From positions 158,534,001 to 158,598,000 of the forward strand of contig NC_042997.1 of assembly GCF_006345805.1 (NCBI RefSeq): a stretch of 64,000 nucleotides of DNA, read 5' to 3'. The notes beneath the pieces were generated by a model that did no database searches, was not told the origin of the DNA, and worked only from the letters and a program-made list of their open reading frames with translations. This document shows, piece by piece, positions 1,606-54,982 of this stretch. The stretch's first letter is position 1, and each line of letters starts with the position of its first letter. This DNA is from Octopus sinensis. Taxonomy: Eukaryota. The position numbers were made by a program, and so were the translations under genes.

Positions 1606-1790
1606 CAGTGTGGCTGACTGATAAGAAGCTGGCTTCCCTACCACATGGGTCAGGGTTCTCTCCCACTGCATGCCACCTTGGGCAAGTGCCTTCTACACTA
1701 TAGCCTGTGGCTGACCAAGGCTTTCTGGATAGAATTGGTAGACGAAAGTTGAAAGAAGCCCGCTGTATATATATATATATATATATATAT
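1606..1790 (+). mobile_element. OK-like tRNA-derived SINE, 5' half, degenerate, ending in (TA)n
   Basis: Aligns by eye to the intact copy at 21398 (CCACATGG..CCCACTGC..CCTTGGGCAAGTG.CTTCTAC..TGGTAGACG..GAAAGAAGCC). Confidence 0.8.
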
Positions 1791-5319: not shown

Positions 5320-6588
5320 AATATAGTTATATTCATATATATATATACGTATGTGAACACACATAAATACACATACGTGTGCGTATATGTGATAGTCCGA
5401 GCCTTTATATTTTTGTTTTCATTATTTATCCGTTATCAAGAGATCGTTTAACACTATTCTTTTTAAATGCGTGCCATTGTCATCAAAAATGCGTGTTCCA
5501 CGCTCCCGTTTTCTCGCTCATTGATGGCATTCGTGATAACAAACGCAGTTCGTTTATTTATCATTGCATTACTAATTTAAATCTAAAGTAAATAGAGCAA
5601 ATTCTCTATCACATATGAAATTAATTTGTTTAAATAACATGCTTAATATTTCTAAAACAGTCCTAACTAACTGCTTACTCACTTAGCTACAAAGAAAAGT
5701 CGAGTTGGTTGGTTCTTACATAAACAAATATTCTTATGCATTCGTGTTCCTGATAATTCTGCTCTTTAGTAAAAAAAATCTCTGCTTTCGTGAAGTTTTC
5801 TTATAAGTTTCTGTATAGTTGTACCTCGTCGAGAATCGGCTGCGTAATTTTCAATCAATGAAGACTTGCTTCATGTATGAATCATGCCAAATATCATAAG
5901 TTCACTAATACTTTTCAAACCAAATTTAAATGTGACATGAATAATTTTATGAGTCCCGAAAAACTTCAATTTTCTGATAAATCTAATAAAACAACGAAAT
6001 TATCTGTCACTATCTTTTATACAAATATTTTCCAAACATAAATGACAAACATAAATATTTAAAATAGTGTAAATTTTTAGTATAAAAATATGATTCAGAA
6101 AGTTACAGTCCATCTGAACTCGAAGCTTATCTTGCGCTTAATAACCATAAGGGACATTTTGCCTCAAATCCTGAGTGTAAATAAGTTGTGTACAAAATGG
6201 AGACAGGGTTAATAACGAAGAATATTTTACATAAAATTAATTATAATGTTAGGAAAACAACCAGCCTCTAGGAATGGAATAACAGCAAAACAATGATTAA
6301 TTCATACGATAGTATTAATATTCAATGCGGGTCTAGGATCATCCGAATTAACATTACTGAAACTTATTCTTGTAGGAATTTATTTCACTCATTACTGCCC
6401 GATATTTTGCTAGAGTACATAATACCATAGAAGGTAGTCACATAGTTTTCAATCTTCACCTAGGGAAGTTTCTGTCTGGTCTCGGTCCTGTGTTAACATA
6501 ACAAATCCCACGAGTTTCTTCTTTGTCATTACGGAGCCGTTCGATTATAGAGAGATATGTGATCTCATCGAACAATATATATATAAGG

Positions 6589-6894
6589 ATTAATAAATCT
6601 CTGAAAGAGATATAAACAGTAACCGCTCGACAACGTAAAGTGTACTAGCCATCTGAATGTGGCTAGCCACTGGGGGTGGGGTGTTACTGATGCTTTTAGC
6701 CCCAGGAGATCAACGTCACCAGCTGGCCTTAGACACAAAATTTCAGTGCCCTTGTGTTATTTGCAAAGGGAGGTCATCCTCCCTCGAAAACCTAAGTGAT
6801 ACATACGGACTATAGTTTCAAGGTAATTGTCTCTCGTCAACGCATGGTAAACACCGATTTTCGATGAAGGAGACCCTCTGCAAATAATAATAAT
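6589..6894 (+). mobile_element. 3' end of an R4/Dong-type non-LTR retrotransposon (ORF C-terminus, 3'UTR, (TAA)n tail)
   Basis: CGTAAAGT(GT)ACTAGCCATCTGA resembles the RKVLAI* ORF end. The 3'UTR ends CCCTCTGCAAATAATAATAAT. A homologous diverged copy lies at 8710-8960 (-). Confidence 0.65.
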
Positions 6895-6947
6895 TAACGT
6901 TTTTCACAGCAAGCACTGTCACTGATTTAGAAAAACTGTCTGAAAGC

Positions 6948-7245
6948 ATTAATAAATCTCTGAACGAGATATAAACAGTAACCGCTCGACAACGTAAAGT
7001 GTACTAGCCATCTGAATGTGGCTAGCCACTGGGGGTGGGGTGTTACTGATGCTTTTAGCCCCAGGAGATCAACGTCACCAGCTGGCTTTTCGAGGGAGGA
7101 TGACCTCCCTTTGCAAATAACACAAGGGCACTGAAATTTTGTGTCTAAGGCCAGCTGGTGACGTCGATCTCCTGGGGCTAAAAGCATCAGTAACACCCCA
7201 CCCCCAGTGGCTAGCCACATTCAGATGGCTAGTACACTTTACGTT
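6948..7245. repeat. Direct duplication (6948-7086 = 6589-6727) fused to an inverted duplication (7087-7245 = reverse complement of 6632-6790)
   Basis: Near-identical copies read directly, about 1 mismatch each. The result is a hairpin 6991-7086 / 7149-7245. Confidence 0.9.
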
Positions 7246-7336
7246 AATATATATATATTGATAGAAATGATAAGACAACAAAAGAATGAAAGAGACCTTG
7301 ATATTATGTAATAAGAGGAATTTATTTGTAAATGTA

Positions 7337-7546
7337 ATATGTGACAATTATTCGGCAGCCATGATAAAACTCCGAGTTTCGGATGTCGGGGTGGAAATCC
7401 ACGCCGCCATCTCTTCGGTTATCCGGCCATCGGAAAGAAATGCATTTTCCCCATGGCCGGATAACCGAAGAGATAGCGGCGTGGATTTCCACCCCGACAT
7501 CCGAAACTCGGAGTTTTATCATGGCTACCGAATAATTGTCACATAT
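7337..7546. mobile_element. 210-bp palindromic (fold-back) element with a hammerhead motif in each arm
   Basis: 94-bp arms (7337-7430 / 7453-7546) with 2 mismatches; centre AAATGCATTT; abuts a (TA)n array. Confidence 0.85.
7460..7520 (+). ncRNA. Type I hammerhead ribozyme motif (U4C core variant); mirror copy on - strand at ~7363-7423
   Basis: Stem I GATAA/TTATC; core CCGAAGA; stem II GAT..CGG.GTGGA/TCCAC.CCG..ATC(C); GAAA; near-palindromic stem III ACTC-G-GAGT; cleavage triplet GUU at 7513-7515. Confidence 0.65.
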
Positions 7547-7548
7547 AA

Positions 7549-7557
7549 AATATATAT

Positions 7558-7642
<85 letters not shown>
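7549..7642. repeat. (TA)n microsatellite
   Basis: Read directly. Confidence 0.95.
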
Positions 7643-7647
<5 letters not shown>

Positions 7648-8048
7648 GCCGTACTAAATTAGAAATAAATTTCATACACGCAAATGGTTTTATCTTTGAT
7701 AACTCACTATCTTCATTAACGAGAAGACTTTATTCACACCCATAAATATTTTTGTTTAAAAATAATTTAAAAATCAGAAATGCTTCAAATGTCACTAAAT
7801 TTAATCATACATAAATACGAATTTTAACTTAACTAAATGAAAAATTGACATGCATTAGTAATCCTACCTATTGTCTTAGTTTTCAAATACTCATCATTAA
7901 CAATATTAGGAGGATCCCCAGCTACTCATCAAATAAAAAAAAGTTGATAAAGAGATTCCTTTATACAATGCTTACAAGCTACATACATAAGACTCAACTC
8001 TACAAACTTTGCGAAATGTTATTTTTTGCAAAGAAAATATTTAAAAAT

Positions 8049-8233
8049 TCCCTTTGCAAGGCGATACGAATTTGAATTTTATCATACAGAATATGAGTGT
8101 TATTTGGTATAAAGAGGTACCCTATCATAGAAATTAGAGGAAATAAAGTAGACAATAGTGGAGTAGAATTTATGGATGATAGTGTTTTCAGGTAAATGGA
8201 CAGAAATCGATAAAGTAACTTGGTATTTTACAA
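8049..8233 (+). repeat. 185-bp inverted copy of 10582-10766 (inside the decayed Dong LINE)
   Basis: Reverse complement match with one visible mismatch. Confidence 0.9.
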
Positions 8234-8408
8234 ATATTTTTCAAATCTACATCATATCCGTAACTGTGAGTATAAATCTCCCAAGGGGCTTCGTCAAGTA
8301 TATCGTAATTTTCTCACACCTCCTCCACATAGCATTTTTTTATCATTGTTTGATCGTTCCCATAAAAGCTTAGTAAAATTGTATTGTATTATTGCAATAT
8401 TATTTCTC

Positions 8409-8464
<56 letters not shown>

Positions 8465-8709
8465 GTATTTGTCATGACTTGTATTGGTATTTTGTACCGT
8501 ATTCCACTTTCACTCACAACTCCACTTCTACCAAAAATAATATGTCTCCTGACCTACATCAACCAATCATAGCCTTCATTTATCACAGTTTCATAATATT
8601 ATGTTCCACCATATCACCTCAATCCTCTTCGATTTCAATTTCATCCATAACCTTTCATTATTTCATTTCAGCAAATTGTATTTGCTTGAAAATCTATATA
8701 TAAATATCC

Positions 8710-8960
8710 TGCAGAGTGAGTTGTTCGTCGAGGAAGCGGTGCCTACCATACGTTGATAATAGGCAAACACCTTGAAAACTAGGTCCGTGTGTGGTTTCCG
8801 CTTCATCGGGGAATTATCTCCCTTTGCAGGATAGAGGACGCCGTGATGGTGTCAAGCCTATCTGGCGACGTTGATGTTCGCCTGGGGCTAAATGCAACAG
8901 TAACACCCCCACCACCCTGCCCTGTCCCTAGTCATATTCAGATGGCTTTAGTCCCTTATG
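8710..8960 (-). mobile_element. Diverged R4/Dong 3'-end fragment
   Basis: Reverse complement GCCATCTGAAT..GGGGTGTTACTGTTGCATTTAGCCCCAGG..TGCAAAGGGAG..CTCTGCA matches 6648-6882. Confidence 0.7.
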
Positions 8961-9249
8961 TTATCATATTTTGTTTTTCATTTAATAAGTAAATTATTTA
9001 GCTTGTATTTATTTCCTAATGTCTAATAATTTATTTCCTTGTTTTTAATCTAACATCTAATTCTATTCTCTTATCTTAACAATTTCGTATCAACATGCTG
9101 TATAAAATATTACTAATTAAACATTTTTTTCGGAATTTCGTCTTATCCAGTTTCATTACATCCCACTACAAACATTTCTTGTTTTCCTAACTATAGATCT
9201 CACCCTCTTCTTTACCGGACATTAGCGCCACCCTCTCCCTTTTTTTTAT

Positions 9250-12200
9250 CGTATGCTCTCATCGAAAAGATAATAGTACCAGCAAATCATTGGGATCGAT
9301 GGCATCGACTGATTACTAACTCCCCAAATTCCTGGACTTTTGCCTAAACTAGAAATTACTCCTATAACTATTACTGAATAAAGAAATAGCGGTTCTCTCC
9401 AGTTTTGATGTTCTTCCGGATTCTTTATGCTATATCTCTGATCCTTCCTTAGAGAAAACATTTTCCTTAACGCATGCGATGTTTTGAGGACAGTCACCCC
9501 TTGTATACTTCCAATGATGTCAGGTAGTTCGAAATTTTAATTTCTTATAGATGGTTTCCAGTGCACTAACAACTATGCTCATCGCGCTAATTATTCAGGC
9601 TGTATGAATACGCTGTATTGTGAAAGCTAGGCCATGCTACTTACGGGTTTGTCATTCTCGTCTCTGTTCTCTTAGGGCGGTAACGCTATAAAAATGAAAA
9701 CCCATTCATTGGTCTCTTTTCATATGAGTGTGGTATTTGATAGATTTTACTGAAGTATCTTACCGGTGCAGTTTGTCACATCCCGAGTGATTTTCAACTT
9801 GCTCATTCTCTGTAACTGGAAAGAGTTGGTGTTCATGCCACTCATAGTTACACTCTAGCTCGTACTTTACCAACCGTGAAATGTTGTATCGTTTTCTATA
9901 CCCCTGGGCCGATTCTCAACATACACTAACTACAATCGTTTACAGATTAGTTTCCACACAATGGACACACATATATTGCTCATGTCTTATCAATGTTGTA
10001 CTTGATAGCATTAGTTAGCAAAACTTGTTTTTGAGCAGCAAGGAACAAACCTTTAGTCTCCTTTAAAAACCATATCTTAACCATATCCAGAATTCCTCAC
10101 CTCGATTCGATATTTGTTGGAAAAACTCTCCATGTAGTACTTTCTCTAGTTTTCTATATTACCCTTCATGAGTCTTCCTTTTAAATTCCTTAAGCTTCTG
10201 GTTATCATCCCTAGTCACCTCACACATTGTGACCCGAAACATCCATTTATCTATATTCTTAGTATGTGCATTCAATGATTTACCTTCTTTCCTATCACAC
10301 TTCTCTACTCCATGCAATCTTTCCCTCCGGCATTGTTTGGAAGATAGCCCTAGCTACATTACTTCTGGTATGAAAGTATTTGTGCTTATCTTTCTACTTC
10401 TTTCTATGCTGACCTGTTTCTCTTTTGTCAAATCTACAGGTTATTATATCAGCCCATGCTTACAATCTAAGTGTTAATGCCATGCCATTTGTCATATTGA
10501 TTCATTTAGCTTGAATCTACACGATTTAGATTTCTTCTTCTAATCTGCTATGATCATCTTGATTTCAGTCATCTGGTTTCATTGTAAAATACCAAGTTAC
10601 TTTATCGATTTCTGTCCATTTACCTGAAAACACTATCATCCATAAATTCTACTCCACTATTGTCTACTTTATTTCCTCTAATTTCTATGATAGGGTACCT
10701 CTTTATACCAAATAACACTCATATTCCGTATGATAAAATTCAAATTCGTATCGCCTTGCAAAGGGAGACAATTTAATCCCTTCTAGCCTCGTTAAACGTC
10801 AGATTATCCATCAATAGTGGGAAGTGGTTGTTATGTTTTTCAACAGACTCGATCTTCAATCTATAACCAGATTTTATTTTCAAAACCAAAGTCAATGGTA
10901 ACAATAAAAACAAACAACTGTGGCAAAGGTCCTCAACCTGCTGTCAAACTTGTCTTTGAATTCCTAGTACTGTAGCTTACTCAAGATATAGTTTGAGCTG
11001 CCCCGATCATCTCCCGGCATTTCCTAATCTACGAGTGACATATCATGCCTTTAGCATTTGATGCACTGTTCCTTTAGATCCCTCCCCCGATTCTTTTATT
11101 CATCAGCTATTAATGGCTTTCTTTCCAAGAGTTCATACTGTATTTCTCCCACTATTCCATATCACGAGAAACCAGACTATCACTTGGTAGTTAATAACAT
11201 AAGCTCCAGCTTTTGTTGAGACCGGGTAAATTTGCCTCTTCTCGTTTTTCTCCATCTACAATTTCGAACAACAGGGTCTGGTTAGTTCTAAACAGTCTAT
11301 TTTGTTTGAACTGTAGGCATCTTTCCTCATATCATCTGATCTTTATTCCACCAGCTTTGATCTTTTTGAATCAAACAATGTTCCATTTTCTTACGGGTGT
11401 TATATCACTTTGTCAAGTCACTTATTTCTTCACCTTACCTCTTCAATCTAACTCAAATTATTTTTTTAATTATCCATATTACCTCCGATTCCGTTTTACG
11501 AAAATTGTATATTGCTTCTCTTTCTTTTCTCTTCCTTCAACATATACTCATTCTTTCCGTAGTGACATGTGCAGCGCCATACATGAACACGATTCCTCTT
11601 TGTGATAGTTTTAGTTTGAATTTTCAGAACCTTTTCTTTAACTTCCCCATCCTCCGATATCAGCTTTGAAGACGAACGAAATACTGCTAAGTATTTTGAC
11701 TGGCGTGGTAACAATTCTGCCAGCTTACCGCCTCTGAAGTTCCTCAATGACGGCAATCCTTTCTTCTCTACAAAAAACATCACCTGTAGAAGTTCTGTCA
11801 TGCGAATCTGTGCTGATCTCTCCTCGTGACTTTTCAGCTAAAGGGTTATATTGTGGTTCTCTACAGCTGGCATATTTCCCTCTTCCATATCCGAGCTATG
11901 CTGATTCCCTTATACAACGGGTATTTCTTCCGGGACTGCATTTCATTTCTCATTGCCTCTGTGCTTTTATCTTGTACCACATTTTCTAATCAAAACTTCA
12001 TATTGATTTGAGTCGCTTCTTTTCATTGACAACCTTCAGCTCATCTTGGTGGTAAAATTTTCTCCAGGGATGTGATCATTTATTTTATAGTCTTGTTTTT
12101 CTAGCTGACTCCTGATGTAACTTGCAAAGAACATTTTATTGTCCTCTTTTGACCTTTTTAATTTCATTTGTTGTTCGTCAACTGCAACTTGATTATGATC

Positions 12201-12300
12201 GGGCCTACGAGATAGTTTACTGGACACCTGCTTGACGAGACACCTTCCCTAAAAACTTCAGTCCTTTTAACAACGTTACATTTAAATCCAGTTCTTGACG
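9250..12300 (-). mobile_element. Decayed R4/Dong LINE (RT + restriction-like endonuclease), internally deleted
   Basis: Minus-strand fragments: N-terminal KRSKEDNKMFFASYIRS, LPSLRN, YEERCLQFKQNRLFRTNQ, and C-terminal VLKTSHALRKMFSL and VIVIGVISSLG. Many stops. Confidence 0.7.
11665..11735 (-). mobile_element. OR1-like SINE 5' fragment inserted in the Dong LINE
   Basis: Reverse complement AGGCGGTAAGCTGGCAGAATTGTTA..AAATACTTAGCAGTATTTCG matches the SINE head at 12574. Confidence 0.7.
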
Positions 12301-12573
12301 TTTTTCTAACACATTAGGTATATGTGGTAAGTTTTCTCAATCAGTAGATTTCAACAATTCAAGTGGTCATCCAAGATTCTTAGAGGCCCGTTTGTTCACA
12401 TTTAAGCTGGTTACTTTGTGCTTGTCGCAACAAATAGTATTTAACTGTGCATCAAGTAAATATAAAAGAAATAAGATAAGGGAGACAAGAGAAGGAATAA
12501 AATTGATTGAAGAACAGATCTTTATTTTAGAGGTTATTAACTCCTAGATGACTTTTCTTTTTAAGAAATTCAG

Positions 12574-12795
12574 AGGCGGCAAGCTGGCAGAATTGTTAGC
12601 GCAACAGGCAAAAGACTTAGCAGTATTTCGTCCGTCTTTACGCTCTGAGTTCAAATTTCACCGATTCTCAATTTGCTTTTCATCCTTTTGGGGGCGATAA
12701 ATTAAGTGCAGTGAAACATTGTGGGTTAATATAATCGACTAGTCTCTCCCCGCAAAATTTCAGCCTTTGTTTCTTAGTAGAAAGCATTATTATTA
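12574..12795 (+). mobile_element. OR1-like tRNA-derived SINE
   Basis: AGGCGGCAAGCTGGCAGAA..GAGTTCAAATT..TTTGCTTTTCATCCTTT.GGGGGCGATAAA..AATCGACT, with an (ATT)n tail. Family recurs throughout the window. Confidence 0.8.
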
Positions 12796-13283: not shown

Positions 13284-13410
13284 ATATATATATAGATGCA
13301 AAGGAATATGGTACTTAAGTTAGATTCACTAGAATTTTGTATGGTGTTATCCATATAAATCCATGGGGTGATTATAATCAAAATAAGCAAAAAGAACATC
13401 TTCGGTAATT

Positions 13411-13494
13411 TGGTACGATCGTTTCACGCTACATCATTTTATTAAACATTGTAAGTATTACAACAGTTTTAAAATGTTGAGCAATCATCAGCCA
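13411..13494 (-). ncRNA. Type I hammerhead ribozyme with canonical CUGAUGA core and long stem II
   Basis: Reverse complement: TGG-CTGATGA-[TTGCT..CATTTTA..TTGTAA TAC TTACAA..TAAAATG..AGCGT]-GAA-ACGATCGT-A-CCA. Stem III ACGATCGT is palindromic; cleavage triplet GUA. Confidence 0.75.
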
Positions 13495-13603
13495 TTTATA
13501 GATGTTTTCCATTAATACATATTTTCAAATTAATTGATAACAGCCCTCTCTATAATGTTATCAATTAATATGAAAATATGTATTAATGGAAAACCTCTAT
13601 AAA

Positions 13604-13687
13604 TGGCCGATGATTGCTCAGCATTTTAAAACTGTTGTAATACTTACAATGTTTAATAAAATGATGTTGCGTGAAACGATCGTACCA
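13604..13687 (+). ncRNA. Type I hammerhead ribozyme, mirror copy (core CCGAUGA)
   Basis: TGG CCGATGA (13607-13613), long stem II, GAAA at 13673, ACGATCGT, GUA at 13682-13684, CCA. Confidence 0.65.
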
Positions 13688-14549
13688 AATTACCGAAGAT
13701 ATTCTTGTTGCTTATTTTGAGTGCGGATTCAGAATGTTTGTATACTCTGCTAGCTTTCCTTGCATGATCAGTGAAGCTATTAGGAAGCTGAAACTCATCA
13801 ATGGATTATTTTATCCGAGCGTATTTCGGATCTTACGTAACTGTGAGAAATGAATACTATGAAAATTTCATATCTCATTACTAACATTTCATTAAATTTT
13901 ATTCAAGCATACATCCATTATGTCCATTTTGCTCAATACAAAGAAAACAAAAATTATATATTAGTGTGAATGACTTCAATGTTTCTTCTTTTCTCACCTG
14001 TTAAATGATATACATTTTTTTTATATATATTCGAGATCACTTAGTTAACTTACTTTATCTTATAGAATTTGCTTTAGGCTGAAACAAATGATGTAATCTT
14101 CGTTATTTACGCACTTGTTCATCATCGACAACGCCAGTACGATGAGTGAAGTAGATAATCGGTGTTTACTTGGAATATATATCATTTAAGTAAATTAACC
14201 TCGACATATTTCCCTCCCCTGCTTTGTTTTCTTTTCTTCATGCGATCACCCAGAGAACGTTCTCGATGTCTAGGATATCATTGTATAATGCCTAATGACT
14301 GCGAATCGATTAATGGCTTTCATCATCTACTTTATTTCAAAATTAATTTAAAAGCAAAATTGAGAAAAATACATTATGCAAAATGATATATATGCATATA
14401 TACGTACGTACATGCGCACATATATACATAAAAGCATATACACATACATACGTGTTTATGTGTGTATGTACGTATCTATGTATATATGTACTTTGTAAGT
14501 ACAATATATATATATTGGCTAAACTGGCAATATGACCATTCCGAAATAT

Positions 14550-15789: not shown

Positions 15790-18200
15790 AAAATTCGTGA
15801 GACACTTTGGTAAGAATACCTTCATTGGATTTCTCTGATGAATTAATATTGATACATAAAACAGACACGTAGCGAAAAACATTTCTATAAATAGTCGGTA
15901 TAATTGCTCTGAAATTCCTTAGTATTTGATTGGTATTTATTTTATTAACACTGATTATATCAAAGAGAAACTTCACTGTGACTGGATTCGACCACAAGAC
16001 ATAAAATGGCTTCATGGAACATACAAGATTGTAATGGATCACTTTTGCGTCCGTTATTTTAGAAATTTTGCCTTTATGAGGGTCATTTTTAGTCATTTCG
16101 GTTGTTTGTGGGTTTTAAGGATCTTAAGTGTGTGTAAAATGTCCTTTAATTTGGAATCCTTATGCAACATTGGTAAATTTTAGGTGACAATGGGGAAGGT
16201 TTCTTTGTTTCTGGGGTTGTATGTGGATATGTACGACAGTATTTTCGGGGAAGGTGTGTTGCTGTGTTGAACTTTTCTTAAGGTTTCTATGTCGATATGT
16301 GTTGCAAGTCTGATTCCATCCTCTATGAGATGAACTGGACAGTGGTTGTTAATCGGGGTGTTTTTGAGATCTTACAGTGTAAAGTCTCTGTTATTTTGTC
16401 TGACACTATTGGTCATATCCTTCTTGCAAGGTTCAAGGGGATGTTTGTTTTGGTGCCTTGGGTGGCAGGAATTAATAGTAGATATTGTTTAGCGTCTATG
16501 GTTTTGTAAAATATCTCTGTTTCTATTTTTAGGTTTATTTTATAATTAATATATCCAAGAATCGGAGTTCCTTGTGGTGGTATTCCGTTGTAAACTGTAT
16601 CTTTGGGCTGACGCTGTTCAATAGTCTTTTGAATTTTAGGAGTTAGCCTGTGTTTTCATTCCAGAGAATGAATCAGTCATCTAGGAGTCTTTTCCAATTT
16701 TCTTTTATGTATTGGGAAAGGGGGTTTCCAAAGGTAGATAACGATTTCTGGTAATTATTATTTCCAGATAGCCCATTGTTAGATTCTCAATGACCAGGGC
16801 GACCCTAGTGCCCATGTTATTTCCAGATTTGTGTTGATAAAGCATATTGTCAAACATAAAGTGGTTGTTTCGTAGGATGAATTCAACCGATTCAATTATG
16901 AATTCTTTGCTGATCCTTTCCGGTATTTCTTCCGGATATTGGTTCAGCCAGAACTGAATTGCCTCTAGCCCATAATTATGAGGTATACTGGTATATAAAT
17001 TAATCACATCAAATGAAACCATGATTATTTCTTCCTTGACTTCTTTGGAGGTGATTTAACATGTCCAAGTCATCTCTAATATAGTTATTGATGTGTTTAA
17101 GAAAGGGTTTCAGGAGGATGTTCATAAATAGACTTAGTCTGTGTGCTTCACAGGCTGGGCCAGTTATAATGGGTGGTAATTGTAGGTCCGCTGGGTTTGT
17201 TGCATGTATATACGTCTTCGGTGATTTTTTATGTTTTCATTTATAATCTGACTTTTGTTGAATTTTGGTAGACTGTAGAAAAGGTTAGGTTTGCATTTAA
17301 AGTTTGTTAAATAGTTAATTTCTTTGGTTGTTAGTTCTTTTCCATGGGTTTTAATTAGTGAGGACAAGATTTTCATTATTTTTTGCGGGGTGTGTTTAGT
17401 GATTCTTTCGTAATGTTGACTGTCATTCAGCATAGGGATTAATAGATTTCTATAGTATAATGTGTCTATTACTACCACTGCACTTCCTTTATCTGCTTTC
17501 TTAATCGTTATATCATCTTTATTTTGAAGTTCTGTTAGTTCCTTCCATTGTGTAGTGCTAAACCTTTCCCTAATAGCCCGCTGTCTGTCAGGTTAATTTA
17601 GTATTATTTTGATCTGGAATTTGCGTGGAAGAATAATTGGTGTTGATTTCATCCATCTCTCGTAGATATCTGCTCTGTTGGAATTTTTTATCATATTCCA
17701 GAAAGCTAGTTTTCTATTATGGAAGTTTGTATTCCAGATGTTCTCTACTTTTCTTTTTGTTAGATTGACTTGTAAGTATGACGTCCTGGTGTGTTTCATT
17801 TGATGTGCGTTGGTTGTTCTTCGGTTTGTTTGTGAAGACCGACTTTAGTGTGGTGCATAGAGTGTTTAAATCTTTACTAATCTGTTCCTGTTTTAAACTG
17901 AATTCATTGTAAGTGTCGTGGAGAGAGAGTTGTTCATTGTTGGGTTTGTTAATAAACATTGAGTTGAGAGTTGTGCATAAAAGTTGTAAGCCATTACTAA
18001 CCTGATCTGTGAGATGAGTTGTTTCTTCAATGTTTTTCCTCTCCCGGGCGAGTTGGTTTGAGTTCTCGATTTTGTTATTTATGATAATGAGGTGCGATTT
18101 AATATTTTTGAGTTCTTTAAGTATGTCCTAGTTTGTAATTTTATCTGATGTATTGGTCTTCTGTGGCATTTTCGGTTCCACGTGTTTTAGCATATGGTTG
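15790..18200 (-). pseudogene. Decayed Penelope-like (Neptune-type) ORF: N-terminal domain + RT, 3'-truncated before the GIY-YIG domain
   Basis: ORF fragments VSFDVINLYTSIPHNYGLEAIQFWL..GTRVALVIENLTMGYLE, KKADKGSAVVVIDT and FKCKPNLFYSLPK. Clearly homologous to the young element at 23492-27655. Stops and frameshifts present. Confidence 0.9.
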
Positions 18201-18269
18201 AGGGAGTTGGTATGTGAAAGAACGTCGTTGAATGTACAATAGACAAAAATTAGGTGAAAAAAATTTAAA

Positions 18270-19036
18270 AAGACGTGTTATATGGTTAAAGAATATATTT
18301 AAATTGTTATGCTAGAAAAATGTTATAAAATTTTGTGTATAGTAACATTGTTTTTGGAGAAATAACCGTCATATTTTCTTCTCAAATTTCTCAAATATCT
18401 TTGCCAATACTGTGTCATCTCTTTGCTAGATATCACAGTACGAGAGTTCCAGACAGGGGAAGGTAATCGCTCAGGCGAAGATGCACTCTGCACCGACAGC
18501 AGATTGCATTCCTAGAATACAGAATGATACCCTTTAGTGAACACATTCAGAAATGCGCAAAGCAACTGCTACCACAATTTGTAATCTTTACATTATATCA
18601 ATGTGCCATTGGAACGCCAACACAAGTTCAATTAAATAAGGAAACCTATTTCATTGGAAAATATAAGCCAAAACGTGACCATTTCTAGCATTTTTAAATA
18701 AGGAAACTTACCTCACAGTATAAAAATATAAAGCAAAACCTAGCATTCAATTCTTTCTAAATCAAAACATGTTAAATTAATAAAAGCTAATCATTCCCAA
18801 CATTTTTGATTATCTCTTTTATACCGAAAATATCCCTGATTATCTTACCCTGTCTGGAACTCTCATACTTCATAGCAAAAAGATGACGCAATATCGGTAA
18901 AGAAATTTGAGAAATTTGCAAAGAAAATACGAAACCGAAATTTCTCCAAAAACAATTTTACTATACACAAAATTTTATAACGTTTTTCTAACATAACGAT
19001 TTAAATATATTCTTTAAAACCATATAACACGTCTTC
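18270..19036. mobile_element. Penelope pseudo-LTR (18270-18468, -) plus inverted 3' fragment (GIY-YIG C-terminus 18469-18690 and pLTR 18838-19036, +)
   Basis: 18270-18468 and 18838-19036 are diverged inverted repeats. The intervening + strand encodes LRRRCTLHRQQIAFLEYRMIPFSEHIQKCAKQLLPQF. Both repeats carry degenerate GAGAAAT-TTG(A/C)(G/A)AA..ATTTCTC hammerhead motifs. Confidence 0.85.
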
Positions 19037-19045
19037 TGTAGTTTT

Positions 19046-19400
19046 CACAGGCTTGGCTGTGTGATAAAAAGCTTGCTTCCGAAACACATGATTCCGGGTT
19101 CAGTCCCACTGCGTGGTACCTTGGTTGTGTGTTTCTACTGTAGCCTCTGGTCAACCAAAACCTTGTGAGAGAATTTGATAGACGGAATCTGAAAGAACCC
19201 CATCGAATATGTGTGTGCACGTGCGCGTGTGAGTGCAACTTTGTGTCTTTGTCTCTCACCGCCGTTTGACAATTAATGTTGATGTGTTTACGTTCTCTCA
19301 ACGTAGCGGTTCGGTAAAAGGGTCCATAGAATATGTACTACATTTAGCAAAAATCCTGTAGTTGATCTGTTCGACTTTAAGGCGGTACTCTGAAACGATT
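19046..19400 (+). mobile_element. OK-like SINE, near full length, diverged
   Basis: Matches 21398-21808 along its length. Confidence 0.85.
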
Positions 19401-20353: not shown

Positions 20354-20598
20354 TTACGGAGAAGTACTTGCATAGCAATTGATTTGATCTGAGATCGTGT
20401 GCTGAAACGAAAACAATTGCAGCGTGGAAGGTGTTTGTAAGCCATTTAAGAAACACACAAAAGCCGTTCGATTCACTTCAACATTTAAGTTTAATTTGTC
20501 AAAATATTTTCGTCGCTTTAAGACCGCGACCTGTTCACTGCCAAAACTCGGATTTTTGTCAGTGAACAGGTCGCAGTCTTAAAGCGACGAAAATATTT
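20354..20598 (-). mobile_element. Short pLTR-like element with terminal fold-back (hairpin 20502-20598) and G3-C8 hammerhead motif
   Basis: ~45-bp arms with 2 mismatches, spacer CTCGGAT. Motif TTTG(T/G)CA-GTGAACA-G-GTCGC..GCGAC-GAA-AATATT-T-TGACAAA. Confidence 0.7.
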
Positions 20599-20957: not shown

Positions 20958-21330
20958 ATACGGGTTTCAAACGCCTAAAAGGACAATTTAGTTATGAAGA
21001 TATATAATAGGAAAAATAAATTGAAATAAATTATTTTTTTCATTTGAGTTCTGAGGATCACATGTTTTTTCTATTCAAGAATGACATGGTATTCGTATGT
21101 CGTTTCCCTCTCACTGTAGCTGGTTCGTGGACACACTTCCACTGCTACCTCTACTATCCACCAATAATCAGATGAAACGAAACACCAACATCATATGATT
21201 TTGTAAGAAAAACATGTGATCTTCCAGAACTGATATAATGGAAGTTTACATTAATTTAGGTTTTTTTCATTTTATATATTCTCTTACATCTCTTTGACTA
21301 AATCTTCCTTTTAGGCGATTCAAACCCGTT
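20958..21330. repeat. Old diverged palindrome (~370 bp)
   Basis: ACGGGTTT.AA.CGCCTAAAAGGA..ATTTAGT at 20960 versus its reverse complement at ~21296-21328. AGTTCTG.A.GATCACATGTTTTT at 21047 versus its reverse complement at 21206-21231. Confidence 0.75.
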
Positions 21331-21354: not shown

Positions 21355-21397
<43 letters not shown>

Positions 21398-21399
<2 letters not shown>

Positions 21400-21808
21400 C
21401 GCAGGAGTGGCTGTATGGTAAGTAGCTTGCTAACCAACCACATGGTTCCGGGTTCAGTCCCACTGCGTGGCATCTTGGGCAAGTGTCTTCTACTATAGCC
21501 CTGGGCCGACCAATGCCTTGTGAGTGGATTTGGTAGACGGAAACTGAAAGAAGCCTGTCGTATATATGTATATATATATATATAAGTGTGTATGTGTTTG
21601 TATGTCTGTGTTTGTCCCCCTAGCATTGCTTGACAACCGATGCTGGTGTGTTTACGTCCCCGTCACTTAGCGGTTCGGCAAAAAGAGACCGATAGAATAA
21701 GTACTGGACTTACAAAGAATAAGTCCCGGGGTTGATTTGCTCGACTAAAGGCGGTGCTCCAGCATGGCCGCAGTCAAATGACTGAAACAAGTAAAAGAGT
21801 AAAGAGTA
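21398..21808 (+). mobile_element. OK-like tRNA-derived SINE, full length, young
   Basis: GGCGCAGGAGTGGCTGTATGGTAAG (A box), GGTTCAGTCCC (B box), CORE-like CTTGGGCAAGTG, internal TA/TG repeats, tail GAAACAAGTAAAAGAGTAAAGAGTA; flanked by (TA)n. Confidence 0.9.
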
Positions 21809-23417: not shown

Positions 23418-23458
<41 letters not shown>

Positions 23459-23632
23459 TAAGAAAGTTTGTTTGGTAAAGCACGTGGGTGAATATATAAG
23501 AAAATAGTAAAGTGTGAAAAAACGACAGAAGGCTTAAATGTTAAAAAATATATATATTTGTGTCAAAATGTCTGGAGAATATTGGAAAAATTTTTTTCCT
23601 TTCCTTAAAATGACATAATTTTAAAATTTTTA

Positions 23633-23672
23633 AAGAAATTACCGGTTTCGCGTGTAGCTTTTCAAATTTCTT
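23633..23672 (-). ncRNA. Minimal type I hammerhead (U3-A8 variant), left arm
   Basis: Exact mirror of 27475-27514. Confidence 0.75.
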
Positions 23673-23809
23673 GTGACGTTATGTTTATATTGCATGGAAT
23701 TATCGTTGTTTTTATTTCCAGGAGATTTCTAAATAAGGGGAGGTAGTGAGTGATTTTTTCCGGTGTAGGGGAGATAATCGCTTAAAAAATTTTTTTTCCA
23801 TTTCCTTGT

Positions 23810-24740
23810 TAATTTCTCTGTGTCAGTATGTTCGGATGGTTGAGTCTGGGTTTGTACTTTTCAATGAAGAATGTTTCCTTGTTCAGTCTCATTTGTGTTG
23901 ATGATCCGAAAGCACATTGGTAAAATGGGAAGATTAAAATTGTGGCAGTAGTTGCTTTGCGCATTTCTCAATGTGCTCACTAAAAGGTATCATTCTATAT
24001 TCTGGGAATGCAATCTGTTGTCGATGCAGTGTGCATCTGCGCCTGAGTGATAGTCCCGTGGAACCCACGTAGTCTTGGTGGCAGCCCGAGCATTTAATAA
24101 CATAAATTATGTTTTCAGAGGCACAAGTAAAGTTAGATTTGATCTTAAATTTCTGTCCCTCTTTAAAGAAGAATTCTGATCCTTCCAATAGGTTAGGACA
24201 TGTTGCACAGTTCGATCTACCACATTTTTTTACTTTTGCATCCGTAATTTTAGAAGACAATTTTGCCTTTGTGAGAATCTTTTTAAGTGATTTAGGCTGT
24301 TTGTAGCTTTTAATGATTTGGTGTATGTTTAGAATTTCCTTTAATTTTGGGTTTTTATGAAGTATTGGTAAATTCTGGGTGATGATGGTGAAGGCTTCTT
24401 TGTTTCTGGGGTTGTATGTAGATATGTAAGGTAGTATTTTCGGGGAAGGTGTGTTGTTGTGTTGAACTTTTCTTAAAGTTTCTATGTTGATTTCTGTTGC
24501 ACGTCTGATCCCATCCTCTATGAGTTGAGCTGGGTAATGTCTGTCAATTAGGGTGTTTTTGAGTTCTTGCAGTCTAAAGTTCCTGGTATTTTGTTCTGAC
24601 ACTATTGTGCATATCCTTCTTGCAAGGTTGAAGGGGATGTTTGTTTTAGTGTGTCTTGGGTGGCATGAATTAAAAAGAAGGTATTGTTTGGCGTCTGTGG
24701 CTTTGTAAAAAATGTCTGTTTCTATTTAAGGTTAATTTTT
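23810..24740 (-). CDS. PLE thumb/linker + GIY-YIG endonuclease (left arm; 1-nt frameshift near 23935)
   Basis: ORF 23934..24602 with CGRSNCATC linker and NIIYVIKCSGCHQDYVGST (GIY-YIG). Confidence 0.85.
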
Positions 24741-25582
24741 TAATTAGTATATCCAAGAACGGGAGCTCCTTTTGGTTGTATTCCATTGTGAACTGTATAT
24801 TTGGGTTTATGCTGTTCAATAGGTTTTTAAATTTTAGGAGTTTATCTATGTTTTCATTCCAGAGAATGAAACAATCGTCTAGGAATCGTTTCCAATTCTC
24901 TTTTATGTATTGAGAGAGGGAGTTTCCAAAGATTGATAGAGATTCCTGGTAAATGATTATTTCCATGTATCCCATTGTTAAGTTCGCAATGACTGGTGCT
25001 GCCCTTGTACCCATAGCAATTCCGGATTTTTGACGGTAAAATGTATTGTCAAACATGAAGTGGTTATTGTGTAGGATGAATTCAATTGATTTAGTAATGA
25101 ATTCTTTACTGATCCTTTTTGGTATTTCTTCCGGAAATTGGTCTAACCAGAATTGTATTGCCTCCAGTCCATAATTATGAGGTATACTGGTATACAAGTT
25201 GACTACATCAAATGAAACCAGGATTGTTTCTTCCTTGGTTTTTTTTGGAAGGTGGTTTAACATATCTAAGTCATCTCTGATATGGCTATCGATATGTTTA
25301 AGGAAGGGTTTCAAGAGGATGTCCATAAGTAGACTTAGTCTGTGTGTTTCACAGGTTGGGCCAGCTACAATGGGTCGTAGTTTTAGGTCCCCCGGATTAG
25401 GTGTGTGTATGTATGTCTTTGGTGATTTTTTAATGGTTTCATTTATAATTTGACTTTTATGAATTTTTGGCAGACCATAGAAAAGGCTAGGTTTGCATTT
25501 AAAGTTTGTTAGGAAATCAATCTCTTTGGTTGTCAGTTCCTTTTCATGGGTTTTAATTAGTGAAGATAGAGTTTTCATTATT
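24670..25582 (-). CDS. PLE reverse transcriptase (left arm, 5'-truncated)
   Basis: FYGLPKIHK, LRPIVAG, SFDVVNLYTSIP, QKSGIAMGTRAAP, WKRFLDDCF, LPFLDILI. The N-terminal ~24 aa of the listed ORF are read-through across the palindrome centre. Confidence 0.9.
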
Positions 25583-26424
25583 TCACTAATTAAAACCCAT
25601 GAAAAGGAACTGACAACCAAAGAGATTGATTTCCTAACAAACTTTAAATGCAAACCTAGCCTTTTCTATGGTCTGCCAAAAATTCATAAAAGTCAAATTA
25701 TAAATGAAACCATTAAAAATCACCAAAGACATACATACACACACCTAATCCGGGGGACCTAAAACTACGACCCATTGTAGCTGGCCCAACCTGTGAAACA
25801 CACAGACTAAGTCTACTTATGGACATCCTCTTGAAACCCTTCCTTAAACATATCGATAGCCATATCAGAGATGACTTAGATATGTTAAACCACCTTCCAA
25901 AAAAAACCAAGGAAGAAACAATCCTGGTTTCATTTGATGTAGTCAACTTGTATACCAGTATACCTCATAATTATGGACTGGAGGCAATACAATTCTGGTT
26001 AGACCAATTTCCGGAAGAAATACCAAAAAGGATCAGTAAAGAATTCATTACTAAATCAATTGAATTCATCCTACACAATAACCACTTCATGTTTGACAAT
26101 ACATTTTACCGTCAAAAATCCGGAATTGCTATGGGTACAAGGGCAGCACCAGTCATTGCGAACTTAACAATGGGATACATGGAAATAATCATTTACCAGG
26201 AATCTCTATCAATCTTTGGAAACTCCCTCTCTCAATACATAAAAGAGAATTGGAAACGATTCCTAGACGATTGTTTCATTCTCTGGAATGAAAACATAGA
26301 TAAACTCCTAAAATTTAAAAACCTATTGAACAGCATAAACCCAAATATACAGTTCACAATGGAATACAACCAAAAGGAGCTCCCGTTCTTGGATATACTA
26401 ATTAAAAAATTAACCTTAAAATAG
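25582..26424 (+). CDS. PLE reverse transcriptase (right arm, 5'-truncated; frameshifts at A-runs near 25715 and 26405)
   Basis: ORFs 25493..25762 (3' part) and 25819..26424 carry the same RT motifs. Confidence 0.9.
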
Positions 26425-27338
26425 AAACAGACATTTTTTACAAAGCCACAGACGCCAAACAATACCTTCTTTTTAATTCATGCCACCCAAGACACACTAA
26501 AACAAACATCCCCTTCAACCTTGCAAGAAGGATATGCACAATAGTGTCAGAACAAAATACCAGGAACTTTAGACTGCAAGAACTCAAAAACACCCTAATT
26601 GACAGACATTACCCAGCTCAACTCATAGAGGATGGGATCAGACGTGCAACAGAAATCAACATAGAAACTTTAAGAAAAGTTCAACACAACAACACACCTT
26701 CCCCGAAAATACTACCTTACATATCTACATACAACCCCAGAAACAAAGAAGCCTTCACCATCATCACCCAGAATTTACCAATACTTCATAAAAACCCAAA
26801 ATTAAAGGAAATTCTAAACATACACCAAATCATTAAAAGCTACAAACAGCCTAAATCACTTAAAAAGATTCTCACAAAGGCAAAATTGTCTTCTAAAATT
26901 ACGGATGCAAAAGTAAAAAAATGTGGTAGATCGAACTGTGCAACATGTCCTAACCTATTGGAAGGATCAGAATTCTTCTTTAAAGAGGGACAGAAATTTA
27001 AGATCAAATCTAACTTTACTTGTGCCTCTGAAAACATAATTTATGTTATTAAATGCTCGGGCTGCCACCAAGACTACGTGGGTTCCACGGGACTATCACT
27101 CAGGCGCAGATGCACACTGCATCGACAACAGATTGCATTCCCAGAATATAGAATGATACCTTTTAGTGAGCACATTGAGAAATGCGCAAAGCAACTACTG
27201 CCACAATTTTTAATCTTCCCATTTTACCAATGTGCTTTCGGATCATCAACACAAATGAGACTGAACAAGGAAACATTCTTCATTGAAAAGTACAAACCCA
27301 GACTCAACCATCCGAACATACTGACACAGAGAAATTAA
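26420..27338 (+). CDS. PLE thumb/linker + GIY-YIG endonuclease (right arm)
   Basis: IETDIFYKATDAKQYL..SCHPRH, Cys-rich linker CGRSNCATC (Neptune hallmark), NIIYVIKC..YVGST..RRR..H, and E..FI..Y.P.LN. Confidence 0.9.
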
Positions 27339-27474
27339 CAAGGAAATGGAAAAAAAATTTTTTAAGCGATTATCTCCCCTACACCGGAAAAAATCACTCA
27401 CTACCTCCCCTTATTTAGAAATCTCCTGGAAATAAAAACAACGATAATTCCATGCAATATAAACATAACGTCAC

Positions 27475-27514
27475 AAGAAATTTGAAAAGCTACACGCGAA
27501 ACCGGTAATTTCTT
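27475..27514 (+). ncRNA. Minimal type I hammerhead ribozyme (U3-A8 variant) in the PLE 3' pLTR
   Basis: Stem I AAGAAAT/ATTTCTT; core TTGAAAA; stem II GC-TACAC-GC; GAA; palindromic stem III ACCGGT; GUA at 27505-27507. Confidence 0.75.
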
Positions 27515-27684
27515 TAAAAATTTTAAAATTATGTCATTTTAAGGAAAGGAAAAAAATTTTTCCAATATTCTCCAGACATTTTGACACAAATATATATATT
27601 TTTTAACATTTAAGCCTTCTGTCGTTTTTTCACACTTTACTATTTTCTTATATATATATATATATATACACCTACCTACCTACC

Positions 27685-27731
<47 letters not shown>

Positions 27732-34208: not shown

Positions 34209-34897
34209 GAGAGCTTTATTTCGCTGGTGATCTAAGCGAATTGGTACGCTGTGTAAATGCTATAATTTGTTATATATATATATATATATATATATCTTGT
34301 GCATACAGTGAGATGTACGACTGCTACTAAAGATTTTAGAGCTTGATGTAGAGTATTTATCCAGTGACACTTGCAACATACACTGCAGTGGTGCGGTAGA
34401 TGAAAATGGTTTTGAATGGAGGTGTTGTGTCGAAGCGTCTAGTATTTTAGAACCCGTTGAAGTGAGATAGTTGTTTTTCATTAACGTTTTAGTTTCAAGA
34501 ATAACAATATGTTTCGTACCATTTACAGACCACATCAGACTGAGTTGATATTTGCAGTTACTTAAATTAAACCTCTGCAGACTGACGCGTGATGAATACA
34601 TGTGAGGAGGAAGAGAGCATCCAGACGCTGGTTAAATGTTTCAGCCAACTATTTAGAGGTTAGGCACAGTAGAGTTGGTGTAAGTGAATAACATGAACTT
34701 GTATAATGTGGTACAACGTGAACTTGTTCAGAGAAGCAAATGCTGTAGCCATGGATGTCGATAGGAAAACAATATGCTAATGGACTATCGGTTACAGACT
34801 CCCATAAGTAAAGTTATGCTAATCAGGAAACTTTACTTGTTTTATCATTGAGCATTTAAAATAAATGTCACTGCTGCAGCACTGCTTATATACATAC

Positions 34898-35020
34898 AGC
34901 AGGTGTGGATGTGTGATTAGAAGCTTGCTTCTCAACTACATGGTTCCGGATTCAGTCCACTGCGTAGCACCTTGGGCAAGTGTCTTCTACTATAGCTTCG
35001 GGCCGACCAAAGCGTTGTGA
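34898..35020 (+). mobile_element. OK-like SINE 5' fragment
   Basis: GCAGGTGTGG..CATGGTTCCGGATTCAGTCC.ACTGCG..CTTGGGCAAGTGTCTTCTACTATAGC. Confidence 0.8.
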
Positions 35021-54548: not shown

Positions 54549-54761
54549 ATATATATATATTTATATATGCATACATATATACATGTAGATGTAGGTACGT
54601 ACATATATGTATGTATGTATGCATATATTTTATTTATTAATTTATTACATGACTGAATGCCCTCGCGTCGTTTCGTTTCTTTTCTGTTCTCCAAGAAAGT
54701 TTATATATGTATATATATATACGTATGTATGTATGTATGTATGTATATGTATACACACACG

Positions 54762-54925
54762 CGACGAGCTTCTTTCAGTTTCTGTCCATTAATATCGATT
54801 TACCATGATTTGGTCGACATGAGGTTATGATAGAAAATACTTGTCCAAGGTGCCACGCAATAGGAATGAACCCAGAATCAAGTGGTTGGTAAGCAAGCTT
54901 CTTACCCTATCGTCATGCCTGCACC
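54762..54925 (-). mobile_element. OK-like SINE 5' half
   Basis: CTTCTTTCAGTTTCTGTC..ACTTGTCCAAGGTGCCACGCAATAGGAATGAACCCAGAA..GGTTGGTAAGCAAGCTTCTTACC..CCTGCACCT. Confidence 0.8.
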
Positions 54926-54948
54926 TTTATATATATATGTATATGTAT

Positions 54949-54982
<34 letters not shown>

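What the first reader, a model, noticed from the sequence alone, without database searches (positions are those of the whole stretch)
7337..7546. GC-rich 210-bp palindrome with two outward-facing hammerheads (CCGAAGA core, GUU site)
The 94-bp arms have only 2 mismatches. Each folds as stem I GATAA/TTATC, core CCGAAGA (U4C), a ~30-nt stem II hairpin, GAAA and ACTC-G-GAGT. The last cannot close as a 4-bp monomer stem and suggests dimeric folding, as in PLE/satellite hammerheads. There is no coding capacity and no obvious TSD; it ends at (TA)n.
Basis: partly seen in the sequence, partly recalled or inferred. Interest (0 to 1): 0.7.

Follow-up and report, generated by a model that had tools for sequence, protein, structure and literature searches.

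The report
Penelope retrotransposon stub with hammerhead motifs
This 210-base DNA palindrome carries one hammerhead self-cleaving-RNA motif on each strand and is likely a dead, mirror-image stub of a Penelope-like retrotransposon, an ordinary kind of animal-genome debris whose ribozymes are predicted to be nearly silent.

Summary
The outer arms match at 92 of 94 bp. Each arm carries a type I hammerhead motif with a U4C core and a GUU site; 7 of 50,000 arm shuffles give such a match. The same descriptor finds five more motifs in the window, all in inverted-repeat elements, two of them at the 3' ends of a head-to-head RT + GIY-YIG Penelope-like element. The finding looks like a miniature of that layout: two very short 3' ends joined head-to-head, a one-sided 79-nt G-poor extension, and (TA)n tracts on both sides (likely span about 7258-7546).

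One correction matters: the two motifs lie on opposite strands, so they cannot dimerise in cis. A read-through RNA is predicted to fold into a 94-bp hairpin. U4C also strengthens a competing helix.

The parent family, copy number and activity stayed unchecked, because no animal genome collection was available. A Ginger2-like MITE remains a minor rival (TGTGA ends, imperfect TSD). Verdict: new member of a known kind, interest 0.3.

The parts
7453..7546 (+). Right arm: short copy of a putative pLTR 3' end, ending directly at the TA-rich tract
   Evidence: 92 of 94 identical to the reverse complement of the left arm; junction shown
7337..7430 (-). Left arm: inverted copy, continuing into a one-sided extension
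7431..7452 (.). Head-to-head junction, itself an imperfect palindrome centred on ATGCAT (7440-7445) with a 2-nt indel
   Evidence: gapped self-alignment
7455..7526 (+). Type I hammerhead-like motif: stem I 10 bp with one bulge, core CCGAAGA 7465-7471 (U4C), stem II 7472-7502 (10 bp, unpaired C before G12), stem III ACTCGGAGT 7506-7514, predicted cut 3' of 7515 (GUU)
   Evidence: chance 7 of 50,000
7357..7428 (-). Mirror hammerhead-like motif: C3 at 7418, predicted cut 3' of 7368; stem II 11 bp because G at 7408 pairs where the right arm has A
7258..7336 (-). One-sided 79-nt extension, G 0.05 / T 0.47 on the hammerhead-sense strand; inferred longer 3' tail of the left copy
   Evidence: composition; 176 of 11,222 sampled 79-nt windows are as G-poor, 50 as G-poor and T-rich; no significant relative in the window, best E 0.14
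7247..7258 (.). (AT)6 tract, inferred left target site, shared with the end of the neighbouring element 6585-7245
7550..7647 (.). (AT)50 tract, inferred right target site

Best explanation
The palindrome carries one hammerhead-type motif on each strand, facing outward, between two (TA)n tracts, and is likely a dead insertion made of two very short, head-to-head copies of the 3' end (pseudo-LTR) of a Penelope-like retrotransposon, whose ribozymes are predicted to be nearly silent here. Shown: the palindrome, the motifs and their non-random match, the TA tracts, the one-sided extension, and the same layout in three other elements of the window. Inferred steps: (1) the GIY-YIG endonuclease of a parent element elsewhere in the genome nicked a (TA)n tract; (2) its reverse transcriptase copied uncleaved RNA, since both arms run 31 nt past the intact GUU site; (3) copying began at two sites about 79 nt apart, giving the one-sided tail, and stopped after roughly 100-190 nt; (4) the inverted copy arose by fold-back self-priming or by priming on both strands, joined at ATGCAT; (5) the insertion has no ORF or tandem partner and has since drifted by a few substitutions. 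In the parent the motif would cut tandem transcripts as a dimer through the near-palindromic stem III. At this locus a read-through RNA would form a 94-bp double-stranded hairpin instead, so its likely output, if any, is dsRNA and not cleavage.
For: Motif not chance: 7 of 50,000 arm shuffles; strict cut met in 1 of 500 shuffled windows. Class is real in this genome: 7 relaxed hits in the window against a mean of 0.46 and a maximum of 4 in 500 shuffles; all 7 lie in inverted-repeat elements at four loci. Two of them lie about 150 nt after the stop codon of an RT (Pfam RVT_1, E 2.6e-08) plus GIY-YIG frame (homologues carry PF01541) in a 4.3-kb head-to-head palindrome that ends in (TA)n on both sides. 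All four loci have an extension on one side only that reaches a TA tract (41, 47, 79 and 83 nt). The finding's extension has the same G-poor make-up (G 0.05) as the 3' end of the coding element (G 0.05). In the finding and in the coding element the short arm stops at an ATAT/ATATAT of the long arm. Literature: dual minimal hammerheads 100-700 bp apart on opposite strands, and most motifs widespread as remnants of truncated PLEs (PMC4209133). Head-to-head inverted pLTRs with palindromic junctions and an optional tail (PMC3846280; PMC8557442). Microsatellite bias. Both-strand nicking at AT-rich DNA, two RT start sites that define the tail, and uncleaved RNA as the main template (PMC11167929). 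Near-silence: full-length fold -183.8 / -196.2 kcal/mol; even an RNA starting at 7453 folds with the core CCGA paired to the stem III UCGG, 5.9 kcal/mol below the hammerhead fold.
Against: No sequence link to an autonomous element. The arm shows no convincing similarity to the other 3' ends in the window (the three scores reached by only 5-7 of 300 shuffles come from TA runs or a single gapped 26-nt patch), no PLE protein maps near 7337-7546 (tblastn of 89 homologues), and there is one copy in 64 kb. The core departs from the PLE consensus: U4C and no unpaired base between A9 and G10.1; none of the 56 representative PLE motifs in Fig. S3 of PMC4209133 has C4. The 79-nt extension is longer than the usual 30-40-nt tail and its assignment rests on composition only. 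The ends 7340-7543 fit the Ginger TGTNR pattern. Rfam gives no hammerhead hit. Energy models ignore tertiary contacts and protein help, so 'nearly silent' is a prediction.
Confidence: 0.8

Rival explanations
1. A non-autonomous DNA transposon (Ginger2-like or Tc1/mariner-like MITE) of 204 bp, 7340-7543, moved by a DDE transposase; the hammerhead match is a coincidence or a passenger.
For: Ends read TGTGA...TCACA, which fits TGTNR; Ginger2 prefers RTATAY with a 4-bp duplication (PMC2836005). The right flank is TATA. TA is repeated on both sides. Other short palindromes without hammerheads occur in the window (20502-20598, 20960-21329).
Against: The left 4-mer is AATA, not TATA, and the base after the right TATA is A, not Y. 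TGTNR occurs at 1.0% of positions, so a few per cent by chance given free choice of the boundary, against 0.014% for the hammerhead match. It does not explain the G-poor one-sided extension or the parallels with three other hammerhead palindromes.
Confidence: 0.1
2. A functional pair of ribozymes at this locus: a bidirectional start in the centre yields two short RNAs that cleave as trans-dimers, as a non-autonomous unit or a host-adopted processing signal.
For: Both arms keep the whole motif, and stem I begins about 12 nt from the centre. RNAs starting at or after about 7430 escape the long hairpin. A natural U4C viroid variant keeps enough activity in vivo (PMC3088659). One PLE hammerhead is protein-assisted (PMC11167929).
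Against: No evidence of transcription or of a promoter in the 22-nt centre. The dimer fold is 6.2 kcal/mol above the alternative. Arm identity is explained by recent origin. Two complementary RNAs made from one locus would anneal to each other.
Confidence: 0.06
3. A local fold-back duplication of ordinary DNA (repair or assembly artefact) that happens to resemble a hammerhead.
For: Single copy in the window; no Rfam hit; descriptor tuned after seeing the sequence.
Against: 7 of 50,000 shuffles match under the same descriptor. The arms differ at 2 of 94 positions plus an indel, unlike a sequencing fold-back. GC 49% is foreign to the surroundings.
Confidence: 0.04

Closest known systems
Minimal type I hammerheads in pLTRs of Penelope-like elements (Cervera and de la Pena 2014, PMC4209133; read: parts 1-2 of 4 of the main text, parts 1-2 of 3 of supplement 2)
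   Same: Type I layout, long helix II, short near-palindromic helix III, dispersed remnants, and pairs on opposite strands 100-700 bp apart. The Hydra entry in Fig. S3 has a 3-nt-loop helix III and one extra base next to GAAA (machine-read text, side uncertain).
   Different: C4 in place of U4 (0 of 56 representatives), no unpaired base between A9 and G10.1, an unpaired C before G12, a longer stem I (10 bp), and no ORF attached here.
Head-to-head inverted pLTR structures of EN+ Penelope-like elements (PMC3846280, passages; PMC8557442, passages)
   Same: Inverted 5'-truncated copy, palindromic junction, extension on one end only, insertion at microsatellites.
   Different: Both copies are cut down to about 100-190 nt; the extension is 79 nt against the usual 30-40; the parent family is not identified.
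The coding element at window 23434-27707 (C-terminal GIY-YIG with a CX4CX2C linker, the motif described for Neptune/Nematis in PMC8557442)
   Same: Same window, same head-to-head layout, outward hammerheads, one-sided G-poor extension, (TA)n on both sides.
   Different: No nucleotide homology to the finding; its motif has a U3-A8 core and a 2-bp stem II, so it is a different family.
Non-LTR retrozymes (PMC7229834, passages; bioRxiv 10.64898/2026.07.22.740005, part 1 of 5 and passages)
   Same: Short, non-coding, type I hammerhead, PLE ancestry proposed.
   Different: Retrozymes are direct tandem repeats that give circular RNAs; this is one inverted pair with one sense motif per strand.
Ginger2 non-autonomous DNA transposons (PMC2836005, passages)
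   Same: TGTNR ends, AT-rich target, similar size (252 bp for Ginger2-1N1_NV).
   Different: The 4-bp duplication is imperfect; hammerheads are not mentioned in the passages read.

Membership tests
PLE-derived inverted pLTR remnant (filed here, as likely) | Head-to-head inverted 3' ends with a palindromic junction | tested here: met
PLE-derived inverted pLTR remnant (filed here, as likely) | Type I hammerhead-type motif near the outward end of each copy | tested here: met
   (variant core)
PLE-derived inverted pLTR remnant (filed here, as likely) | Insertion at AT-rich or (TA)n target | tested here: met
   TA tracts at 7247-7258 and 7550-7647
PLE-derived inverted pLTR remnant (filed here, as likely) | Optional tail on one end only | tested here: inconclusive
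   79-nt G-poor extension; longer than 30-40 nt and assigned by composition only
PLE-derived inverted pLTR remnant (filed here, as likely) | Homology to the pLTR of an RT + GIY-YIG element | not testable with these tools
   No match to the window's own PLE family; no animal genome collection to search
Canonical type I hammerhead | Core C3 U4 G5 A6 N7 G8 A9 | tested here: not met
   CCGAAGA, U4C in both arms
Canonical type I hammerhead | G12 A13 A14, A15.1-U16.1 pair, H17 | tested here: met
   7503-7506, U7514, U7515
Canonical type I hammerhead | Stems I, II and III can form around the core | tested here: met
   10, 10-11 and 3 bp; the fold is 5.9 kcal/mol above the minimum
Canonical type I hammerhead | G10.1-C11.1 pair directly next to the core | tested here: inconclusive
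   G-C present but with one extra C before G12 or as a bulge
Canonical type I hammerhead | Rfam hammerhead family score | tested here: not met
   the control motif at 27482-27507 is missed too
Canonical type I hammerhead | Self-cleavage | not testable with these tools
   needs in vitro transcription
Canonical type I hammerhead | Tertiary contact between stem I bulge and loop II | not tested
   no 3D RNA model run
PLE minimal hammerhead consensus (PMC4209133) | Short palindromic helix III and long helix II | tested here: met
   ACTCGGAGT, 8 of 9 positions self-complementary
PLE minimal hammerhead consensus (PMC4209133) | CUGANGA plus an unpaired H between A9 and G10.1 | tested here: not met
Non-LTR retrozyme | Direct tandem units each with a hammerhead | tested here: not met
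   no tandem repeat, one sense motif per strand
Ginger2 MITE | TGTNR termini | tested here: met
   7340-7344 TGTGA and mirror
Ginger2 MITE | 4-bp target duplication within RTATAY | tested here: not met
   left AATA, right TATA then A
Ginger2 MITE | Many copies with fixed ends | not testable with these tools
   one copy in the window

The most novel reading that the evidence does not exclude
The palindrome is a mobile unit of its own: a Penelope-derived fold-back whose TGTGA ends let a Ginger2-type transposase spread it as a 204-bp MITE with hammerhead arms, and the CCGA core (also seen in one arm of the unrelated palindrome at 13378-13720) is a conserved, lineage-wide functional hammerhead variant that standard descriptors miss.
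Probability: 0.08. Interest if true: 0.65.

Novelty: new member of a known kind. Interest (0 to 1): 0.3.

Why it matters
As it most likely stands, this is a small, clear example of known retroelement debris. It adds one unlisted family and one variant motif. Two points have some value. First, four hammerhead-bearing inverted loci lie in 64 kb and Rfam reports none of them, so such genomes probably hold many unannotated motifs; 6 of the 7 hits have non-consensus cores. Second, the series from 0.2 kb to 4.3 kb, each with a near-zero spacer and a one-sided extension, is good material for testing how Penelope-like elements make inverted copies (self-priming against two-strand priming), which the papers read here leave open. 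If C4 proved conserved and active across a family, the accepted hammerhead core for these elements would need widening.

Tried and rejected
Rfam scans of the whole window (gathering), of 6400-9100 and of the single arm: only generic hairpin matches below gathering scores; the control motif was missed as well. Search for further copies: none in the window; none in GTDB genomes by a three-motif pattern; none in phage or plasmid records by blastn. These collections are prokaryotic, so the blanks say nothing about copy number in the host. A scan of GTDB for stray contigs with the neighbouring PLE protein found 25 pattern matches and none confirmed. Nucleotide homology of the arm to five other terminal regions of the window: nothing convincing. 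The AAACTCGGA 21-nt match at 20541-20561 (E 0.44) lies in a palindrome with no hammerhead hit and was rejected as chance. miRNA precursor (mir-BART10, 49.6 bits against 70 required): rejected as a generic hairpin score. Coding role: the 127- and 135-aa stop-to-stop frames come from the TA tract; the longest ATG frame in the left arm is 20 codons. An RNA-editing footprint in the two A/G arm differences was considered; two events are too few, and the other palindromes show no such bias. Supplements of PMC8557442 (1 file held) and PMC4209133 (file 1 not searchable) gave no match to the arm's motifs. Lunse, Weinberg and Breaker 2017 (RNA Biol) is not held; it is cited only through the review PMC6765202 (passages) and may list C4 variants that I could not see.

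Full report
Setting. The window is AT-rich (29-38% GC per 2 kb), full of microsatellites and has no long host ORF. It holds an RT + GIY-YIG retroelement whose named homologues are mostly from molluscs: Mytilus, Saccostrea and Octopus bimaculoides, besides one entry labelled as a bacterial MAG protein. I infer an animal, probably a mollusc. That the dispersed repeat at 21356-21759 is octopus-like is recalled and comes from no call.

The observation. The outer arms 7337-7430 and 7453-7546 match at 92 of 94 positions. With a 2-nt indel the symmetry runs to ATGCAT at 7440-7445. GC is 48.6%. Each arm, read outward, gives a type I hammerhead layout at the stated places, with the predicted cut 3' of 7515 on + and 7368 on -. 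Stem I is longer than first reported: 10 bp with one bulged A. Two features depart from consensus: C at core position 4, and an unpaired C between stem II and G12.

Chance. A first descriptor found only the two arms in the window and nothing in 12 shuffles. A relaxed descriptor found 7 hits, against a mean of 0.46 and a maximum of 4 in 500 block-wise dinucleotide shuffles; 1 of 500 shuffles met the strict cut that both arms meet. Shuffling the arm alone gave 7 matches in 50,000. The two arms count as one event. Rfam shows no hammerhead, but it also misses the motif at the 3' end of the coding element.

Context. All 7 hits fall in inverted-repeat elements at four loci. (a) The finding. (b) 13378-13720, a palindrome with outward motifs, CTGATGA in one arm and CCGATGA in the other. 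(c) 23434-27707, two 5'-truncated copies of an RT (Pfam RVT_1) + GIY-YIG element joined head-to-head, each with a U3-A8 motif about 150 nt after the stop codon, and (TA)n at both ends. (d) 6585-7245, next to the finding, with a motif at -6840..6808 and a diverged relative near 8730-8790. An older copy of family (c) at 16041-19035 has a decayed motif at its 5' pLTR and an inverted truncated copy beside it. Each of the four loci has an extension on one side only that runs to a TA tract: 79, 83, 41 and 47 nt. The finding's extension, 7258-7336, has G 0.05 and T 0.47 on the sense strand, like the 3' end of element (c); 176 of 11,222 sampled windows are as G-poor. So the insertion probably spans about 7258-7546, between (AT)6 and (AT)50. 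This boundary is inferred.

What is known. PMC4209133 (parts 1-2 of 4, and supplement 2 parts 1-2 of 3) describes minimal hammerheads in pLTRs, mostly as dispersed remnants, and pairs 100-700 bp apart on opposite strands; activity was low even in dimers. PMC3846280 (passages) and PMC8557442 (passages) describe head-to-head inverted pLTRs with palindromic junctions, an optional 30-40-nt tail and microsatellite bias. PMC11167929 (parts 1-2 of 4) shows a PLE protein nicking and extending both strands at AT-rich DNA, two RT start sites that define the tail, uncleaved RNA as the main template, and protein-assisted cleavage. PMC3088659 (passages) notes that a natural U4C variant is much slower in vitro but supports a viroid in vivo. 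PMC6962438 (passages) lists 235 Rfam hammerhead-1 loci and Penelope elements in giant squid, so hammerheads in cephalopods are in print. None of the 56 representative PLE motifs has C4. Nine literature searches showed no description of this family. Lunse et al. 2017 is not held and could contain such variants.

Mechanism. Inferred: a parent PLE's endonuclease nicked a TA tract, and its RT copied uncleaved RNA from two start sites, because both arms extend 31 nt beyond an intact GUU site and one arm extends 79 nt further. Copying stopped early, and an inverted copy was made by fold-back or two-strand priming and joined at ATGCAT. In the finding and in element (c) the short arm stops at an ATAT/ATATAT of the long arm, which fits priming on the TA target; element (d) shows no such overlap and element (b) has no TA tract at its short end. 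The product has no ORF and no tandem partner.

Predicted activity. The two motifs are on opposite strands, so no single RNA carries two sense copies. A read-through RNA folds into one long hairpin (-183.8 on +, -196.2 kcal/mol on -). An RNA starting near the centre escapes this, but its best fold pairs the core CCGA with UCGG of stem III. The hammerhead fold lies 5.9 kcal/mol higher as a monomer and 6.2 as a trans-dimer. For the other three families the monomer gaps are similar (4.9-7.1) but the dimer gaps are 1.0-3.2, and with the consensus U4 the finding's dimer gap falls to 2.4. This suggests that C4 is a weakening change inherited from the parent copy, though these models ignore tertiary contacts and proteins. 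The right arm has also lost one stem II pair that the left arm keeps.

Against this reading. No homology ties the arm to any coding element, and there is only one copy in the window. The core fails both the canonical and the PLE minimal consensus, so I do not file it as a canonical hammerhead; it works like one by layout, with activity untested. The ends 7340-7543 fit the Ginger TGTNR pattern, and Ginger2 targets RTATAY (PMC2836005, passages). The 4-bp duplication is imperfect (AATA against TATA) and TGTNR occurs at 1.0% of positions, so this rival gets about 0.1. Searches of GTDB, phage and plasmid collections found nothing, as expected for an animal repeat.

Verdict. The dimer idea applies to the parent element, not to this locus. 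New member of a known kind; interest 0.3. The most novel reading not excluded is a self-standing ribozyme-armed MITE with a conserved functional CCGA core (probability 0.08, interest 0.65).

Noticed in passing
window 23434-27707: 4.3-kb head-to-head palindrome of two 5'-truncated RT + GIY-YIG Penelope-like copies with a CX4CX2C linker. The aligned arms show 2,066 matches, 3 gap columns and no substitution, so it is very young, homogenised or an assembly effect. U3-A8 hammerhead motifs at 27482-27507 (+) and 23665-23640 (-); 41-nt tail on the left only.
   Followed up: partly
window 13378-13720: Second non-coding palindrome with two outward hammerhead motifs, a 59-nt stem II and a palindromic ACGATCGT stem III; core CTGATGA in the left arm, CCGATGA in the right; 83-nt extension to a TA tract on the left.
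   Followed up: partly
window 6585-7245 and 8682-8947: Compound direct/inverted element between TA tracts with a TTGACGA-core motif at -6840..6808; the diverged relative near 8730-8790 has TTGATAA and keeps stem I pairing. It shares the TA tract at 7247-7258 with the finding.
   Followed up: partly
window 16041-19035: Older, broken copy of the same coding family on the minus strand (83% identity), with its N-terminal region, a 5' pLTR at 18270-18468 and an inverted truncated copy at 18466-19035; both ends carry decayed hammerhead motifs.
   Followed up: partly
window 8049-8233 and 10582-10766: 185-bp inverted repeats, 99.5% identical, enclosing 2.3 kb with no long ORF and no clear target duplication; possibly a young non-autonomous DNA transposon.
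   Followed up: no
window 20502-20598, 20960-21329, 11669-12638: Three further inverted-repeat elements with no hammerhead hit; MITE-like.
   Followed up: no
window 1608-1789, 19048-19390, 21356-21759, 34887-35020, 54740-54967: Dispersed SINE-like repeat next to TA tracts, 71-83% identical between copies; its resemblance to a common octopus repeat is recalled, not tested.
   Followed up: no
window 7410-7348 (-): The left arm has an ATG at the start of stem II opening a 20-codon frame; in the Anolis element PAc the ORF also starts at stem II. The right arm lacks this ATG.
   Followed up: no
window 7356/7527 and 7408/7475: Both arm differences are A (right) against G (left) on the hammerhead-sense strand and outside CpG; too few to infer editing.
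   Followed up: partly
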